64,000 bases of DNA. Origin: an uncultured Bacilli bacterium (GTDB taxonomy: Bacteria; Bacillota_I; Bacilli_A; RF39; UBA660). Position 1 is the stretch's first letter; the number at the start of each line of letters is the position of its first letter. The notes below the pieces were generated by a model that worked only from the letters and a program-made list of their open reading frames with translations, was not told the DNA's origin and ran no database searches. Shown piece after piece: positions 1,147 through 4,856 of this stretch. Where the stretch lies: contig CANQZW010000001.1 in the NCBI GenBank assembly GCA_947628435.1, forward strand, positions 12,013 through 76,012, in the 5' to 3' direction. Made by a program: the position numbers and the translations under genes.

Positions 1147-1173
1147 TTAAATCACTTCCTAACTAAATTAATA

Positions 1174-1578
1174 TTATTTCATTTTTTCTAATTCACTTAA
1201 TGCTTTCGATTTTTTTATAGTTTCGTTTGATATCTCAATTAAATTATTATCAACAGCAACATAGTGAATTATTTTTATATTGTTTATATCCATAGCTTTT
1301 CTTATTTCATTTTCTATGTAGTGTAATTGTACACAATGAGGAGATTTGTCTACAGAAGCAAATACTATTTTATCAATATTTGTCCTACAAATCATTCCTA
1401 TAATTTTAGTTATTACCATATTTATATGAGTTTCTTCTAAACAAACATCATAAATTATATCTGAATATTTAGTTAGTGCATTGTATGCTTTAGGTTGCAT
1501 TTTTTCCAAGCAACTTCCTACAATTACCATTATATTTTGAGTATCATAAACATTGGTTTTCATTAAATCTTTTTTCAT
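1174..1578 (-). CDS. small Cys-containing hypothetical protein, possibly DsrE/YchN-like fold; cargo of the terminal cassette unit C
   Basis: 134-aa ORF with RBS GAAAGGAAAA. The N-terminus (IMVIVGSCLEKMQPKAYNALTKY) weakly resembles DsrE/YchN-family openings. Four Cys residues. It lies downstream of repeat R1. Confidence 0.35.
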   Translation of the reverse strand: MKKDLMKTNVYDTQNIMVIVGSCLEKMQPKAYNALTKYSDIIYDVCLEETHINMVITKIIGMICRTNIDKIVFASVDKSPHCVQLHYIENEIRKAMDINNIKIIHYVAVDNNLIEISNETIKKSKALSELEKMK

Positions 1579-1698
1579 TTTATGTTTTTCCTTTCAATAC
1601 GTCAACTAAAATTACATCTTCTATTTGCATATTTTTTTACTTTTATTTTATTTTTCTTCCATTTAAACATAATAAATCTCAAATACATAATTTTATAA

Positions 1699-1892
1699 GG
1701 GTTAAATGTCGTAATCATCTTTTCAATTCATCACATAAATTTAAAGTATTTTTATCAAATTTAAGTAATTTAGACATTTTTTAATAAAACGTGTAAGATC
1801 GTTTTTCACGAAAACCCTTTATTTATAAGGTTTCACTAGTGGGTTAAATAAATCGTAATCAACCAATTTATATTTGTTTTATTTTCATTCAT
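1699..1892 (-). repeat. Repeat R1 (~195 bp), one of three near-identical cassette-leader repeats. In gene orientation it begins with a degenerate copy of the ylqF start (ATGAATGAAAATAAAACAAATATAAATTGG)
   Basis: Aligns over ~200 bp with 3481-3674 and 4636-4851. The shared blocks, on the plus strand as given, are gggttaaatgtcgtaatca, ttaaagtatttttatcaa, ttttttaataaaa, tgtaagatc, ctttatttat and ggttaaataaatcgtaatcaacca. Confidence 0.8.
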
Positions 1893-1910
1893 ATTTATCA
1901 CTTCCATAAA

Positions 1911-2840
1911 CTATTTAACTTCTTCAAGTTTTTCTTGTTCCATATTTTCCAATTGTTTCTTTTCTCTTTCAAGTTCTTTTAAACTTTTTTTAGGTGTTGG
2001 CATTTCTTCAGGCATCATTCCTCCAATATCTTGAATAGCTTTTCGTACTTTTTTACCAACTTCGTAATGAACAGCCTTGGCATTATTTTCACCTTGTACA
2101 TTATCTTTAATTAATCTTTGTTTCGTTTGATTTATTCTAAATAGATTTGCAATTAATTCATCTTCATTCATATTATCTAGTATATCTTCTCTATAACGCA
2201 ATTTCTTTCTTTTAAAAATATCATCAGCTGTTTCCCCATTATATAATCCCTTATATCCTGCATTATGAAATTCTGCCATATTTTTAACACCAGCAGATGA
2301 AGCAACTTTTTGAAGCGTATAATTACCTTGCCTAGTTAACTTTCTTTGATAAAACCTTTTTTCATCATCTGATAAAGATTCATATTCTTGCTCTGTAATT
2401 TCCTGCTTTCTTGTTTGAATAGCAAAGTAAGTTTGCCCTAAAGCAACAACTTTTTTATTTGGATCAGCATTTTGCACTATAAGATAACATATATATCTAG
2501 ACAATTTGTAATCTTTAATAATTTCTTCTTTTCCTTTACCAGTTTTTATTGGCTTGTTGACTTCAACAACCCAATCTTCCCTATTTGAAATACTATTTTT
2601 TGCTGATACGATGGCTTTATCTATTACTTTTTTAAAATTTCTCCAATCTTTATAGTCTAATGCCTTTTGTAATTCACGCGCATACCAATATTCATTTCCA
2701 TATTCATCTAAATGTTTTATAATTTCAAAAATACTATCAGTATATTGGTTATTTATACCTTTATTCACTATTTTATTTTCTTTTTTATTCACCATAAAAT
2801 CACTTCCTTTCATAAATTTTTTTATCATAAAAATTTGCAA
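1911..2840 (-). CDS. dinD: DNA-damage-inducible protein D (DinD family, Bro-N-like N-terminus)
   Basis: 309 aa. Strong collinear similarity to E. coli DinD: YWYARELQKALDYKDWRNFKKV, LSRYICYLIVQNADP, GQTYFAIQTRKQE, ANLFRINQTKQ, GGMMPEEMPTP. It lies 2 nt downstream of RhuM, so the two look translationally coupled. Confidence 0.85.
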   Translation of the reverse strand: MQIFMIKKFMKGSDFMVNKKENKIVNKGINNQYTDSIFEIIKHLDEYGNEYWYARELQKALDYKDWRNFKKVIDKAIVSAKNSISNREDWVVEVNKPIKTGKGKEEIIKDYKLSRYICYLIVQNADPNKKVVALGQTYFAIQTRKQEITEQEYESLSDDEKRFYQRKLTRQGNYTLQKVASSAGVKNMAEFHNAGYKGLYNGETADDIFKRKKLRYREDILDNMNEDELIANLFRINQTKQRLIKDNVQGENNAKAVHYEVGKKVRKAIQDIGGMMPEEMPTPKKSLKELEREKKQLENMEQEKLEEVK

Positions 2841-2842
2841 AT

Positions 2843-3449
2843 TTATCCTTCTATATAATTTCTTCTAACAAAATCAGTATAAATTAATTCAGCAGCAGTA
2901 TGACCACTTATCGCATAATGCAATTTGTTTTGCACAACTTTAAAAAATGTGTATGCTTCTTCAGCTTTTGGATTATAATCGGATGATGTCGCAATGAATA
3001 AATCAGTAATCTTTTGATAAGACATTCTTTCGCTTACTCTAATAGTTTTAATTCTTTCTAATAATTCATTAAAATATTGTGTGCTAAATCTATTTCCACT
3101 TATAAATCTCTCATCATTTAAAGCAAAACCTTTTATCATATATTCTTTCAGTATTTTAGTTGCCCATATTCTAAATTCAGTTGCTTTTTTAGAATTAACT
3201 CGATAACCAACTGCAATTATAGCATCAAGATTATATATTTTTGTTTTATAATTTTTACCATCTGAATCAGTTATCTTTAAATATATTTTTTAAATGCAAT
3301 GATATATTATCAGTAGAACAATCAAAAACTTTAGACATTCCTTTTTTGGTAAGCCATAGAGTTTCATCTTTATAGATTGTATCAACAACTATATTACCAT
3401 CTTTATTTTTATATATTAATAAATTATTTTGTTCTTCTAATTTTTTCAT
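2843..3449 (-). pseudogene. rhuM: virulence RhuM-family protein, split by a +1 frameshift in an A-run near 3262-3268
   Basis: The N-terminal piece (MKKLEEQNNLLIYKNKDG...ISLHLKNIF, RBS AAAGGAGA) stops at 3267. A second frame opens a few codons upstream of that stop and continues ITDSDGKNYKTKIYNLDAIIAVGYRVNSKKATEFRIWATKILKEYMIKGFALNDERF... to 2843. Together the two pieces reconstruct a full RhuM. The shift lies in a homopolymer. Confidence 0.75.
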
Positions 3450-3480
3450 TTTCTCATCTCCTTTTACTATGTTCTTAAAT

Positions 3481-3674
3481 TTCGGAATCACCTTTTCAAT
3501 TCCTCACATAATTTTAACGAAAATTAAAGTATTTTTATCAATTTTTAGTATTTTAGCCTTTTTTTAATAAAAATATGTAAGATCTTTTTTACTAAAACTC
3601 TTTATTTATAAAAATTTCACTAAGGATTAAATAAATCGCAATCAACCAGTTGATGTTTTTTTATTTTCGTTCAT
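3481..3674 (-). repeat. Repeat R2 (~195 bp), cassette leader upstream of RhuM-DinD. It begins with the ylqF-start-like core ATGAACGAAAATAAAAAAACATCAACTGGTTG
   Basis: It shares the exact 14-mer AAACATCAACTGGT with the real ylqF 5' end (1100-1146, minus strand). The rest aligns with R1 and R3. Confidence 0.8.
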
Positions 3675-3773
3675 ATTTTCGCTTTCATCTTTTAAAACTA
3701 AAAAATTCAAATCTTAAGTGTTCATTTTTGAACTCTTTTCTAAACCCGTCGAATTCGACGGAATTGAAACTAT

Positions 3774-4616
3774 TTATTTTTTATCTATGTATTTATAATT
3801 TAAGCTATTGCTTTTTGATATAGCTGATTTTTTAGTTTCTTTTTCATATAAGTCTTTTGCTCCCCTGGCAACTCCTCCACCACGCTTCGCTACATTTAAA
3901 TTTTCTTTTAATCCTTGTGGATGTTCTTCTCTTGCAATATCCCTTGTTGCTATTTCACCAATATTTGTTAGAGCAACTTCAATGTCAGTCATATTATCTC
4001 TTAAAGATTCTTTTCTAAGTCCTTTTAGTTCCTTATATTCACTAGCTTTCATTCCAGACCAGCCTTTATATATTTCATTTGTTAAAAGTGCAAATTCCAC
4101 TGGTTTAATAATTCCGCCTTCTTTCCAAACATCAGTAAGTTTAAATCTATCAACTATTCCACTTAATCTAACTTTTATCCATTCGTCCGTATATCCTTTA
4201 TTTCTATAATATTCAACAGCTCTATTAACTGCAATTTCAGGATCAAACACTTCATCAATTCTTTCACTTCCTAATTTTGCCAACCAAAGTTTAAATGGCT
4301 CTGCTTTAGGGCTTGGAACAGATTCAATTAATCTTAAAATTCCTTTTGTATCTAAGGCATCTGTTTCCCTCATTTTTCCATCTTGAGCTTTAATTTTCAA
4401 CTGTACGATATTTTCGTACAGTTCACTTCCTTCTTTTTCTAATTTCCTTTTTAAATCTGTCCAATATCTTTTTGGAATATTACTGTCTGTCAATGCTCCA
4501 ATAACATCAACAACACTAAAGTAATATTCTTCTTTATCACTATCCCAAATACTTCTTATTTCTTTATCTTCAAAAAGATTTGAAATTGTTTCTAATTTAT
4601 TATTCAAAATTAACAC
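3774..4616 (-). CDS. Bro-N domain protein (phage anti-repressor-like N-terminal domain), cargo of cassette unit A
   Basis: 280-aa ORF. Bro-N-like pattern FEDKEIRSIWDSDKEEYYFSVVDVIGAL. The likely true start is TTG at ~4606 after AGGTG. Confidence 0.65.
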   Translation of the reverse strand: MLILNNKLETISNLFEDKEIRSIWDSDKEEYYFSVVDVIGALTDSNIPKRYWTDLKRKLEKEGSELYENIVQLKIKAQDGKMRETDALDTKGILRLIESVPSPKAEPFKLWLAKLGSERIDEVFDPEIAVNRAVEYYRNKGYTDEWIKVRLSGIVDRFKLTDVWKEGGIIKPVEFALLTNEIYKGWSGMKASEYKELKGLRKESLRDNMTDIEVALTNIGEIATRDIAREEHPQGLKENLNVAKRGGGVARGAKDLYEKETKKSAISKSNSLNYKYIDKK

Positions 4617-4635
4617 CTACTTTCTTTTTTTATTA

Positions 4636-4851
4636 AGGGTTAAATGTCGTAATCACTTTTTCAATTCATAACAAAAATTTAACGAAAGTTAAAGTATTTT
4701 TATCAAATTTTAATAATTTTAGCCTTTTTTTAATAAAAATATGTAAGATCGTTTTTCATAAAAAATCCTTTATTTACAAGAGTTTTTGTGAAGGGGTTAA
4801 ATAAATCATAATCAATCAGTTAACGTTTGTCTGATTTTTTTGATTTTCCAT
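4636..4851 (-). repeat. Repeat R3 (~215 bp), cassette leader upstream of the Bro-N gene. It begins with the best-preserved ylqF-start-like core
   Basis: Minus strand ATGGAAAATCAAAAAAATCAGACAAACGTTAACTG versus ylqF ATGGACAATCGACAAAATCAGGCAAACATCAACTG (about 30 of 35 identical). It starts 6 nt after the S41 peptidase stop. Confidence 0.8.
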
Positions 4852-4856
4852 TTAAA

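What the first reader, a model, noticed from the sequence alone, without database searches (positions are those of the whole stretch)
1147..4856. Tandem array of three cassette-like units inserted at the 5' end of rbgA/ylqF, each headed by a repeat that starts with a decayed copy of the ylqF start
Between lepB (6229-6750) and rbgA (277-1146), which normally sit close together in the rplS-lepB-ylqF cluster, there are ~3.7 kb of accessory DNA. It is organised as three units. R3 heads the Bro-N gene. R2 heads RhuM plus DinD. R1 heads a small Cys protein. Then comes the real ylqF. In gene orientation each ~200-bp repeat begins with an ATG followed by a sequence clearly derived from the ylqF start. 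The real ylqF reads ATGGACAATCGACAAAATCAGGCAAACATCAACTGG. R3 reads ATGGAAAATCAAAAAAATCAGACAAACGTTAACTG. R2 shares the exact 14-mer AAACATCAACTGGT. R1 reads ...ACAAATATAAATTGG. All four copies diverge from one another right after CAACTGG. This is the signature of repeated site-specific insertion at a core overlapping the ylqF start codon. Each event left a hybrid att-like junction and pushed older units upstream, much as tRNA-gene or 5'-gene-end targeting integrative elements accrete and as cassette arrays form. No integrase is present in cis. The result looks like a recombination hotspot that stockpiles phage-lineage genes and has not, to my knowledge, been described.
Basis: seen in the sequence. 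Interest (0 to 1): 0.85.

Follow-up and report, generated by a model that had tools for sequence, protein, structure and literature searches.

The report
Mobile gene-cassette array at rbgA start
Three small mobile gene cassettes, each carrying candidate anti-phage genes and its own replacement start for the essential ribosome-assembly gene rbgA, have been inserted one after another at exactly the same base of that gene, and the same kind of array, probably built by a short serine recombinase, is widespread in uncultured gut bacteria.

Summary
Window 1111-4870 holds three co-oriented units. Each is a ~190-bp conserved leader, then cargo, then a Shine-Dalgarno site, an ATG and about 12 rbgA-like codons.

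Related genomes show the units are discrete mobile cassettes. The Cys cassette is 97.5% identical between the window and L002. Its flanks are only 40-50% and ~75% identical, and identity steps exactly at the two junctions. In L001 the window's R1 head is the working rbgA start.

130 leaders in 90 loci all lie upstream of rbgA on its strand. The junction always follows TG of the Trp codon of W-(Y/F)PGHM: TG is kept in 63 of 65 junctions and the next base is free.

No recombinase lies in the window or its array. In relatives, two lineages of ~400-aa large serine recombinases without a coiled coil sit in leader-headed units. They were directly upstream of rbgA in 15 of the 16 places examined.

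Best reading: an SCC-like array of recombinase-less cassettes, made by serine recombination at TG. It stockpiles candidate single-gene defence systems (PADLOC PDC-S02, S05, S13, S22).

Integration at the rbgA 5' end is already known for tyrosine-integrase ICEs such as Tn5253. The cassette array, the two-box leader and the short recombinase were not found in the literature searched.

The parts
277..1146 (-). rbgA/ylqF, the target gene. Only the part from the Trp codon onward (277-1113) is native. The first 33-35 nt come from cassette 1.
   Evidence: Pfam MMR_HSR1. Identity to L002 falls from 92-100% to about 75% at window ~1111.
1111..1165 (-). Right end of cassette 1: Shine-Dalgarno site, ATG and 11 codons (MDNRQNQANIN) plus TG. 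This is the current, working rbgA start (head|rbgA junction, TG at 1113-1112).
   Evidence: The same sequence is fused to rbgA in L002, which has the same cassette but a different host.
1174..1578 (-). Cargo of cassette 1: a 134-aa Cys-containing protein of unknown family.
   Evidence: No Pfam or PADLOC hit. Homologues are also cassette cargo in L002 and L016.
1692..1862 (-). Leader R1, the left end of cassette 1. Box A is TTGATTACGATTTATTTAACCC at 1862-1841. Box A' is TGATTACGACATTTAACCC near 1719-1701.
   Evidence: nhmmer E 2e-56; alignments.
1863..1911 (-). R1 head, the right end of cassette 2: Shine-Dalgarno site GGAAGTGA, then ATGAATGAAAAT...AATTGG, TG at 1865-1864. It is a former rbgA start.
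   Evidence: In L001 the same DinD 3' end plus Shine-Dalgarno site and ATGAATGAAAAT... is fused to the rbgA body and serves as its start.
1911..2840 (-). Cargo of cassette 2: a DinD-like protein with a Bro-N domain (PADLOC PDC-S13).
   Evidence: Pfam Bro-N 8.5e-9; PADLOC PDC-S13 4e-92.
2843..3491 (-). Cargo of cassette 2: a RhuM pseudogene in two fragments (3267-3491 and 2843-3139).
   Evidence: Pfam Virulence_RhuM 2e-34 for the fragment. It clusters with intact 341-aa RhuM cassette genes. RhuM and DinD are also adjacent in L011.
3475..3645 (-). Leader R2, the left end of cassette 2. Box A is TTGATTGCGATTTATTTAATCC and box A' is TGATTCCGAAATTTAAGAAC.
   Evidence: nhmmer E 2e-54.
3646..3690 (-). 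R2 head, the right end of cassette 3: ATGAACGAAAATAAAAAAACATCAACTGG, TG at 3648-3647. It is now out of frame.
   Evidence: Exact 14-mer AAACATCAACTGGT shared with rbgA.
3774..4616 (-). Cargo of cassette 3: a Bro-N protein (PADLOC PDC-S13). This is the commonest first gene of such cassettes.
   Evidence: Pfam Bro-N 3.9e-11; PADLOC 1.6e-111. 14 of 75 first ORFs belong to this family.
4630..4815 (-). Leader R3, the left end of cassette 3, the oldest and most upstream unit.
   Evidence: nhmmer E 1e-57.
4816..4870 (-). R3 head: the displaced older rbgA 5' end with its Shine-Dalgarno region (ATGGAAAATCAAAAAAATCAGACAAACGTTAACTGA, TG at 4818-4817).
   Evidence: 42 of 50 identical to the current rbgA head, z = 13.9. 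The same head type follows the S41-like gene in L002.
4857..6023 (-). S41-like peptidase pseudogene between lepB and the array. Its status as core gene or old cargo is unresolved.
   Evidence: It clusters with intact 388-398-aa genes in L002 and L004. The L087 388-aa ORF, which lies inside a cassette, has a near-identical sequence. Weak Peptidase_S41 hit.

Best explanation
**What the array is.** The region is a tandem array of three small, recombinase-less mobile cassettes. They were integrated one after another at a single site in the 5' end of the essential gene rbgA.

**What a cassette contains.** Each cassette has three parts:
- a ~190-bp leader whose first ~22 bp (N-TTGATTACGATTTATTTAA...) abut the crossover;
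- one to a few co-oriented cargo genes, usually led by a candidate single-gene anti-phage system (Bro-N, RhuM, KilA-N, YhcG or DinD-like);
- a right end that supplies a new ribosome-binding site, ATG and about 10-20 codons ending in ...TG.

**How it inserts (inferred).** A circular cassette carries the joint head-TG-leader. Recombination with head-TG-G-TAT-CCN-GGN-CAT (the W-Y-P-G-H codons of rbgA) puts the cassette next to rbgA. This rebuilds TGG and an intact rbgA with a new N-terminus, and it pushes older units upstream.

**The likely enzyme (inferred).** The enzyme is most likely a ~400-aa TnpX-like large serine recombinase that lacks the coiled-coil motif.
- In relatives it is encoded by autonomous units of the same architecture: leader, cargo, recombinase, sometimes a hydrolase, an outward promoter, then the head.
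- In the window it would have acted in trans or has since left.
- The product junctions are of the same two types as the substrates. The same reaction can therefore excise the rbgA-proximal part of the array as a circle, taking passenger cassettes with it.

**Shown.** Discrete units, exact shared junctions, horizontal exchange, and the linkage of the recombinase to rbgA.

**Inferred.** The circular intermediate, the identity of the enzyme, cutting at TG, and the order of insertion.
For: **Discrete mobile units.**
- The Cys cassette is 97.5% identical over 752 bp between the window and L002. Upstream DNA is 38-50% identical and the rbgA body about 75%. The steps fall at the two junctions.
- L001 lacks that cassette and uses the R1-type head as its rbgA start.
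- The YhcG cassette is shared by L010, L012 and L109 behind different neighbours.

**Generality.**
- 130 leaders were found in 90 loci, all on the rbgA strand.
- In all 19 metagenome loci where rbgA lies in the same stretch, the leader is upstream of it.
- Arrays reach 5 leaders in 3 kb.
- L005 is an empty site with lepB next to rbgA.

**Junction.**
- TG is kept in 63 of 65 distinct head|leader junctions. The next base is free (G 37, A 13, T 10, C 5).
- In rbgA the sequence is always TG-G.
- Heads follow the local RbgA N-terminus, for example the ...PISW lineage.

**Recombinase.**
- Proteins with Resolvase, Recombinase and Zn_ribbon_recom domains occur in arrays L094 and L075 (Pfam). tblastn finds homologues in L124 and L128 and fragments in L085 and L090.
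- Homologues of two lineages (41% identical to each other) were looked up without regard to context. They lie directly upstream of rbgA in 15 of 16 places.
- A leader lies to their left in L141-L148 and L150-L152.
- The fold matches SPbeta, Bxb1 and phiC31 integrases, with no coiled-coil hairpin in the model. The closest solved sequence is the TnpX catalytic domain.

**Co-orientation.** 62 of 63 ORFs inside arrays run towards rbgA.

**Outward promoter.** An extended -10 element lies after the recombinase stop codon.

**Cargo.** The lead genes match PADLOC PDC-S13, S05, S22 and S02.
Against: - No recombinase of any kind lies in the window's 64 kb or in the 24 genome loci of its closest relatives. 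For this lineage the enzyme is inferred from more distant genomes.
- The recombinase-bearing units examined most closely (L141-L148) have a diverged box A (GAAATAACGACTTATGG). Only the L075/L150 lineage carries the canonical TTGATTAC(G/A)A box.
- A serine integrase needs only about 25 bp on the cassette side. The conserved 190-bp length and the second, co-varying box A' are therefore unexplained.
- The rbgA-side half-site shows no dyad symmetry.
- Tyrosine integrases are known to use the same position in streptococci (PMC8571831).
- No circular form, excision product or activity has been observed.
- All relatives are metagenome assemblies.
Confidence: 0.65

Rival explanations
1. The cassettes are remnants or trans-mobilised passengers (CIME-like) of Tn5253/Tn5252-type elements. 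These use a tyrosine integrase plus Xis to integrate at the same position of rbgA. On this reading the leader is the arm of the attachment site, and its two boxes are arm-type integrase binding sites.
For: - Tn5253 integrates after nt 20 of pneumococcal rbgA. It brings an 84-bp mimic that restores the coding sequence. attL equals attB and attR equals attTn (PMC8571831, PMC6079316).
- Several streptococcal ICEs with tyrosine integrases target the rbgA 5' end (PMC4701971).
- In L091 and L090 a leader is followed by conjugative-element-type genes: ParB, sortase, a 415-aa protein read by eye as a surface protein, and a protein over 1,300 aa with a weak methylase hit, plus ParA in L090.
- A fixed-length 190-bp region with two direct boxes about 15 helical turns apart looks more like an arm of a tyrosine-integrase site than like a minimal serine-integrase site.
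Against: - No tyrosine recombinase was seen in or next to any of the arrays. A motif scan covered 938 ORFs and Pfam covered about 55 array ORFs.
- The only tyrosine recombinases are Xer-like ~300-aa genes 6-9 kb downstream. They are also present in the array-less L005 and in L139, L140 and L158.
- Only TG is invariant between partners, which is short for a 6-8-bp overlap region.
- Serine recombinases, not tyrosine ones, are the enzymes physically linked to the junction.
Confidence: 0.15
2. This is a homologous-recombination hotspot. Variable genes between the conserved lepB and rbgA are swapped by flanking homology after DNA uptake. The repeats are a shared promoter and 5' region that spread by duplication, and no site-specific recombination is involved.
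For: - The locus lies between conserved core genes.
- Whole array segments could be exchanged through homology in rbgA and the leaders.
- Tn5253 itself was once moved by transformation and homologous recombination (PMC8571831).
Against: - The junction falls at the same dinucleotide in lineages whose RbgA is only 38-88% identical.
- Cassette identity stops exactly at the junctions rather than fading into the flanks.
- Every unit carries its own rbgA start mimic, which duplication of a promoter would not create.
- Leaders within one array are only 60-85% identical, which is poor substrate for homologous recombination.
Confidence: 0.05
3. The leader is a structured cis-regulatory RNA (riboswitch-like, or a known motif found upstream of Bro-N genes) or a folded single-stranded recombination site like an integron attC. 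The array would then be integron-like.
For: - The ~190-nt sequence is conserved and sits directly upstream of the first gene of each unit.
- Arrays of short co-oriented cassettes resemble integrons.
Against: - There is no Rfam match even at E <= 10.
- RNAalifold gives no consensus structure on either strand for 54 non-redundant leaders at 63% mean identity.
- The boxes are direct repeats, not inverted ones, and no inverted copies exist.
- No IntI-type integrase was found.
Confidence: 0.03

Closest known systems
Tn5253/Tn5252-type ICEs integrating in the 5' end of rbgA (Streptococcus, Enterococcus)
   Same: - Same target gene and essentially the same position, just after the Trp codon of the W-(F/Y)PGHM motif.
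- The element carries a mimic of the rbgA upstream region and first codons, which becomes the working start.
- The original 5' end is left upstream.
- The crossover lies at the right-hand edge of the repeat.

Sources: PMC8571831, PMC6079316, PMC4701971.
   Different: - Those are 20-65-kb conjugative elements, each with its own tyrosine integrase and Xis next to attR. They occur as single insertions.
- Here the units are 0.5-4 kb, mostly without any recombinase, stacked up to five deep, and share a 190-bp two-box leader.
- The linked enzyme here is a serine recombinase.
- I could not compare the left-end sequence of Tn5253 with the leader.
SCC/SCCmec composite arrays at rlmH (orfX) built by Ccr large serine recombinases (from my own knowledge)
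   Same: - Serine-recombinase elements target the end of a conserved housekeeping gene and preserve its reading frame.
- The junction next to the gene stays a usable target, so elements accrete in tandem.
- Many units lack the recombinase (pseudo-SCC) and depend on it in trans.
   Different: - SCC elements use the 3' end of rlmH rather than the 5' end of rbgA.
- They are tens of kb long rather than 0.5-4 kb.
- Ccr proteins are 450-540 aa.
- SCC elements have no conserved 190-bp leader.
- They do not need to supply a promoter, ribosome-binding site and start codon.
TnpX/TndX transposon-type large serine recombinases (Tn4451, Tn5397)
   Same: - These are the closest characterised sequence relatives: TnpX catalytic domain at E 5e-24 and TndX-annotated genes at about 36% identity.
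- From my own knowledge, they carry out both excision and insertion through a circular form with a 2-bp crossover and need no separate directionality factor.
   Different: - TnpX and TndX are 530-700 aa and insert at many related sites.
- The proteins here are about 400 aa, model without a coiled coil, and are tied to one site.
Integrons (IntI, attI, attC cassettes)
   Same: - Arrays of short, co-oriented cassettes, mostly single-gene and recombinase-less, sit at one chromosomal site.
- New cassettes enter at a fixed end.
- The cargo is rich in small accessory and defence-type genes.
   Different: - There is no IntI tyrosine recombinase.
- There are no attC hairpins.
- The recombination site lies at the head of each cassette and appears to be recognised as double-stranded DNA.
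- Insertion is inside an essential gene, which each cassette must repair.
Site-specific accretion and cis-mobilisation of CIMEs by ICESt1/ICESt3, and tycheposon arrays at tRNA genes in Prochlorococcus (from my own knowledge)
   Same: Integrase-less elements flanked by attachment sites accumulate in tandem at the target of a related autonomous element and can leave together with it.
   Different: Those systems use tyrosine recombinases, the 3' ends of fda or tRNA genes, and much larger units.

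Membership tests
rbgA-5'-end integrative elements (Tn5253 type) | Insertion inside the 5' end of rbgA, just after the conserved Trp-codon region. | tested here: met
   All four window junctions and 63 of 65 junction contexts follow TG of the Trp codon. Tn5253 inserts after nt 20 (PMC8571831).
rbgA-5'-end integrative elements (Tn5253 type) | The element carries a mimic of the rbgA 5' end that restores the coding sequence (attR = attTn, attL = attB). | tested here: met
   The Cys-cassette head is identical in the window and L002. The R1-type head is the live start in L001.
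rbgA-5'-end integrative elements (Tn5253 type) | A tyrosine integrase and Xis are encoded next to attR. | tested here: not met
   No tyrosine recombinase was found in any array.
rbgA-5'-end integrative elements (Tn5253 type) | A conjugation module is present. | tested here: not met
   The window cassettes carry 1-2 cargo genes only. ICE-like genes after a leader were seen only in L090 and L091.
Large-serine-recombinase integrative elements (SCC-like arrays) | The element encodes a recombinase with Resolvase, Recombinase and zinc-ribbon domains. | tested here: inconclusive
   Met in related units (L094, L075, L139-L154). Absent from the window and its closest relatives.
Large-serine-recombinase integrative elements (SCC-like arrays) | The crossover is at a 2-bp central dinucleotide shared by both partner sites. 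| tested here: inconclusive
   TG is the only invariant shared element, and the next base differs between cassettes. This is consistent with the feature, but cleavage was not observed.
Large-serine-recombinase integrative elements (SCC-like arrays) | Autonomous and recombinase-less units accrete in tandem at one gene end. | tested here: met
   Arrays of 2-5 units were found. The recombinase unit sits next to rbgA with recombinase-less units upstream in L094, L145/L146 and L150/L151.
Large-serine-recombinase integrative elements (SCC-like arrays) | Recombination activity and circular intermediates. | not testable with these tools
   This needs PCR or long reads, or an in vitro assay.
Integron | An IntI tyrosine recombinase next to attI. 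| tested here: not met
   None was found.
Integron | attC sites: imperfect inverted repeats that fold as single strands. | tested here: not met
   No consensus fold on either strand. The boxes are direct repeats and no inverted copies exist.
Rfam structured RNA families | A match to a covariance model, or a conserved covarying structure. | tested here: not met
   No hit in window 1000-5000 at E <= 10 or at gathering thresholds over the whole window. RNAalifold gave an empty structure.
IS200/IS605-type elements and their non-autonomous derivatives | Subterminal hairpins at both ends and TnpA/TnpB. | tested here: not met
   No conserved hairpins. No such proteins were found among the array ORFs scanned.

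The most novel reading that the evidence does not exclude
This may be a second, independently evolved integron-like platform that runs on a serine recombinase.
- A short (~400 aa) large serine recombinase without a coiled coil would capture, stack and release small non-autonomous cassettes at the TG of the rbgA Trp codon, in either direction.
- Every cassette would carry a standard 190-bp two-box entry module, which also controls expression, and an exit module that re-starts the essential gene.
- The result would be a shared, exchangeable library of single-gene anti-phage systems across uncultured gut Bacilli and Clostridia.
Probability: 0.35. Interest if true: 0.85.

Novelty: new variant of a known kind. 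Interest (0 to 1): 0.68.

Why it matters
- **A new cassette system.** If the mechanism holds, this is a compact gene-cassette system in Gram-positive gut bacteria. It uses a serine recombinase rather than an integron integrase, and it must repair an essential gene each time it acts.
- **Candidate defence genes.** It offers a natural catalogue of candidate single-gene defence systems (RhuM, Bro-N, KilA-N, YhcG, DinD-like) that are delimited base-for-base. That makes these poorly understood genes easier to test.
- **Possible genome-engineering tools.** The ~400-aa recombinases with a defined 2-bp crossover and short sites are small candidate tools, and may work in both directions.
- **RbgA variation.** The array explains why the N-terminus of RbgA varies between close relatives.
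- **Assembly breaks.** It probably also explains why assemblies of these genomes break at this locus: several contigs end at or just beside a leader (L001, L009, L013, L034).

Tried and rejected
- **Known RNA family.** Rfam gave nothing in the region, at gathering thresholds or at E <= 10. A literature search for the GEBRO motif returned only unrelated papers.
- **Structured RNA or attC-like fold.** RNAalifold on 54 leaders gave no structure on either strand.
- **Promoter scan.** There were fewer sigma-70-like hits than in shuffles, so the scan was uninformative in this AT-rich DNA.
- **Phage or plasmid carriers.**
  - The first two-box pattern found nothing in viral contigs.
  - The box A pattern gave 41 viral hits, of which only L034 is real.
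  - The leader has no blastn match in the phage or plasmid collections.
  - The recombinase has matches of at most 39% identity there.
- **Recombinase in cis.** None was found downstream of rbgA in L002. Pfam found none among about 30 array ORFs of the 24 genome loci. Nothing was found in the rest of the window.
- **Third recombinase lineage.** The 555-572-aa lineage first looked like a further link to the array. It is the integrase of a different element that inserts into RhuM genes, so I dropped it as evidence.
- **Xer/dif idea.** The boxes resemble the XerD arm in only 7 of 11 positions, by eye. I did not pursue this.
- **Transposon ends.** There are no inverted copies of the box anywhere in the arrays.

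Full report
**1. What is in the window**

All genes in window 1-9000 run on the minus strand. In gene order they are:
- rplS (6788-7159) and lepB (6229-6750);
- a frameshifted S41-like pseudogene (4857-6023);
- repeat R3 (4630-4860) and a Bro-N gene (3774-4616);
- repeat R2 (3475-3678), a RhuM pseudogene (2843-3491) and a DinD-like Bro-N gene (1911-2840);
- repeat R1 (1692-1900) and a 134-aa Cys protein (1174-1578);
- rbgA/ylqF (277-1146).

The three repeats are 60-85% identical to each other. A profile built from them finds only these three copies plus the rbgA start in the whole 64 kb.

Each repeat begins, in gene orientation, with an ATG and rbgA-like codons. The R3 head with its Shine-Dalgarno region matches the present rbgA 5' end at 42 of 50 positions (z = 13.9). 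R1 and R2 are weaker alone (z = 4.3 and 3.3).

**2. The units are discrete and mobile**

I fetched rbgA loci from 24 related metagenome-assembled genomes, labelled uncultured Bacilli, Tenericutes or Clostridia, many from rabbit gut. Fourteen carry one to three leader copies. All copies lie upstream of rbgA on its strand.

Three comparisons settle what a unit is.
- **L001** (RbgA 87% identical) ends its DinD gene with the same Shine-Dalgarno site and ATGAATGAAAAT... as the window's R1 head. There it runs straight into TGG-TAT-CCA-GGC-CAT, so it is the working rbgA start.
- **L002** (RbgA 78% identical) has the same Cys cassette as the window. Identity is 97.5% over 752 bp. Upstream of the left junction it is 38-50%, and in the rbgA body about 75%. 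The steps fall exactly at head|leader and head|rbgA.
- **L005** has lepB next to rbgA with nothing in between.

A unit is therefore leader, cargo, then Shine-Dalgarno site, ATG and about 12 codons. The unit nearest rbgA supplies the gene's current start. By inference, the order in the window from oldest to newest is Bro-N, then RhuM/DinD, then Cys.

**3. How general it is**

A two-box pattern scan of metagenome contigs returned 73 loci, of which 64 hold true leaders. With the other loci this makes 130 leaders in 90 loci, none on the opposite strand.
- In all 19 metagenome loci where rbgA lies in the same stretch, the leader is upstream of it.
- Arrays reach five leaders in 3 kb (L119).
- Of 63 ORFs of 80 aa or more lying between leaders, 62 point towards rbgA.
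- Heads track the local RbgA N-terminus, including a lineage ending ...PISW.

Across 65 distinct junctions, TG is kept in 63. The following base is free (G 37, A 13, T 10, C 5), and then comes TT-GATTACGA. In rbgA itself the sequence is always TG-G-T(A/T)(T/C)-CC. The only element common to all partners is thus the TG of the Trp codon in W-(Y/F)PGHM.

**4. What the leader is not, and what remains odd**
- It matches no Rfam family, even at E <= 10.
- It has no consensus fold on either strand in 54 non-redundant copies of 63% mean identity.
- Its length is nearly fixed: the trimmed segment that spans it (14 nt before box A to 30 nt past the start of box A') is 202 nt in 41 of 72 copies.
- It holds two direct copies of a ~20-nt box, GATTACGA plus a variable 8-9-mer, 144-159 bp apart.
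- The variable parts co-vary within a leader (z = 10.7; 0 of 2000 permutations reach the observed value).
- In the recombinase-bearing unit of L145 the two boxes are identical over 21 nt.

Box A abuts the crossover. Box A' sits just before the ribosome-binding site of the first gene. A minimal serine-integrase site does not explain box A' or the fixed length.

**5. The recombinase**

No recombinase lies in the window or in the arrays of its 24 closest relatives. In the metagenome arrays I found large serine recombinases:
- Pfam confirms Resolvase, Recombinase and zinc-ribbon domains in L094 (397 aa) and L075;
- tblastn finds homologues in L124 and L128 and fragments in L085 and L090.

Homologues of the L094 type (73-98% identical, all 396-406 aa in the listed clusters) were looked up by exact sequence without regard to context. 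In all 10 places the order is variable genes, recombinase, a ~180-aa hydrolase, then rbgA.

The L075 type is 41% identical to the first. In 5 of 6 places it lies 55-60 nt upstream of rbgA, and in the sixth it is followed by another cassette gene.

A leader lies to the left of these units. It is canonical in L150-L152 and diverged in L141-L148. After the recombinase stop there is an extended -10 element ahead of the rbgA ribosome-binding site.

The predicted structure (mean pLDDT 74) best matches the SPbeta, Bxb1, phiC31 and LI integrases. After the zinc ribbon the model shows only short helices, not a coiled-coil hairpin. The closest solved sequence is the catalytic domain of TnpX.

A third lineage of 555-572 aa is unrelated to the junction. 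It belongs to an element that inserts into RhuM genes.

**6. Mechanism proposed**

A circular cassette carries the joint head-TG-leader. The recombinase pairs it with head-TG-rbgA and exchanges strands at TG. The products are again one head-TG-leader junction and one head-TG-rbgA junction.

From this it follows, by inference:
- the gene-proximal site stays usable, so arrays grow at the rbgA end;
- the same reaction can excise the proximal part of the array;
- recombinase-less cassettes can ride with an autonomous unit and be left behind when it leaves.

The TG statistic, the palindrome ATCAAC-TG-GTTGAT at the commonest junction, and the linkage of the enzyme to rbgA support this model. No reaction has been observed.

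**7. Cargo**

The first genes of cassettes are mostly Bro-N (14 of 75), KilA-N (7), DUF6870 (6), YhcG/DUF1016 (4) and RhuM (4).
- They match the PADLOC candidate single-gene defence systems PDC-S13, S22, S02 and S05 with E-values from 1e-92 to 1e-140. DUF6870 has no PADLOC match.
- Later genes are small enzymes: GNAT, HAD, UDG, deaminase/ASCH, NUDIX and nucleotidyltransferase.

**8. Relation to what is known**

Integration at this point of rbgA, with an element-borne mimic that restores the gene, is published for Tn5253 and other streptococcal ICEs. These use tyrosine integrases (PMC8571831, PMC6079316, PMC4701971).

Tandem accretion of recombinase-less units at a serine-recombinase target is familiar from SCC elements (my own knowledge).

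A full-text search for serine recombinases together with rbgA found nothing relevant. I therefore rate this as a new variant of a known kind, not as categorically new.

The main uncertainty is the enzyme for the window's own lineage. The main unexplained feature is the two-box leader.

Noticed in passing
L093 779-2446; L155-L158 (e.g. L158 10001-12032): A separate 555-572-aa large serine recombinase is followed by a 129-131-aa RhuM C-terminal fragment in L155-L158. It appears to be the integrase of a mobilisable element that inserts into RhuM genes, including RhuM cassettes next to rbgA. That element carries an HTH_36 protein, and in L159/L160 a Mob_Pre relaxase.
   Followed up: partly
L072 (oriented) 8218-9234, opposite strand: An IS110-family transposase (DEDD_Tnp_IS110 plus Transposase_20) sits inside an rbgA array. 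It accounts for one of the few ORFs that oppose the array's orientation.
   Followed up: no
L090 and L091, downstream of the leader (L091 4280-14369): In these loci a canonical leader is followed by genes typical of conjugative elements. L091 has ParB, a sortase, a 415-aa ORF read by eye as a surface protein, and an ORF of over 1,300 aa with a weak methylase hit. L090 has ParA. Large elements may therefore use the same entry module. Their right ends and integrases lie outside the fetched DNA.
   Followed up: partly
window 7273-8463: trmD encodes 396 aa, about 150 aa more than usual TrmD (from my own knowledge). The extension is Lys/Asn-rich. ORFs of 396 and 398 aa from the same BLAST cluster occur in L002 and L017.
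   Followed up: no
window 4857-6023: The S41-like peptidase gene between lepB and the array is split by a frameshift. Intact 388-398-aa copies exist in L002 and L004. A near-identical 388-aa ORF in L087 lies inside a cassette, so this gene may itself be old cargo.
   Followed up: partly
window 3745-3762: A perfect 16-nt palindrome, CCGTCGAATTCGACGG, lies just after the Bro-N stop codon, with no T-run after it.
   Followed up: no
L150 11216-11268; L153 1315-1376; L149 11222-11288: A conserved extended -10 element (TGTTATACT, TGTTATAAT or TGATATAAT) lies between the recombinase stop codon and the rbgA ribosome-binding site. It looks like an outward promoter that keeps rbgA expressed.
   Followed up: partly
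L034 121-5740 and 5847-7551: Prophage tail genes, identified by reading the translations (a tape-measure-like protein and tail proteins), directly abut an array fragment. The fragment holds a RhuM C-terminal piece, a partial leader, a kinase-like gene and a full head plus leader. It is the only true leader hit in the viral contig collection.
   Followed up: partly
window 277-1146 versus L001, L017, L002: The N-terminus of RbgA differs between close relatives according to the last cassette inserted: MDNRQNQANINW, MNENNVLNKSVINW or MVNENKTNINW. This is a natural swap of the residues ahead of the conserved WYPGHM motif.
   Followed up: partly
window 61562-61654 and 31621-31694; whole window: Rfam finds a PGK RNA motif (87.9 bits) and one tRNA. 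60 of the 62 ORFs of 100 aa or more are on the minus strand.
   Followed up: no
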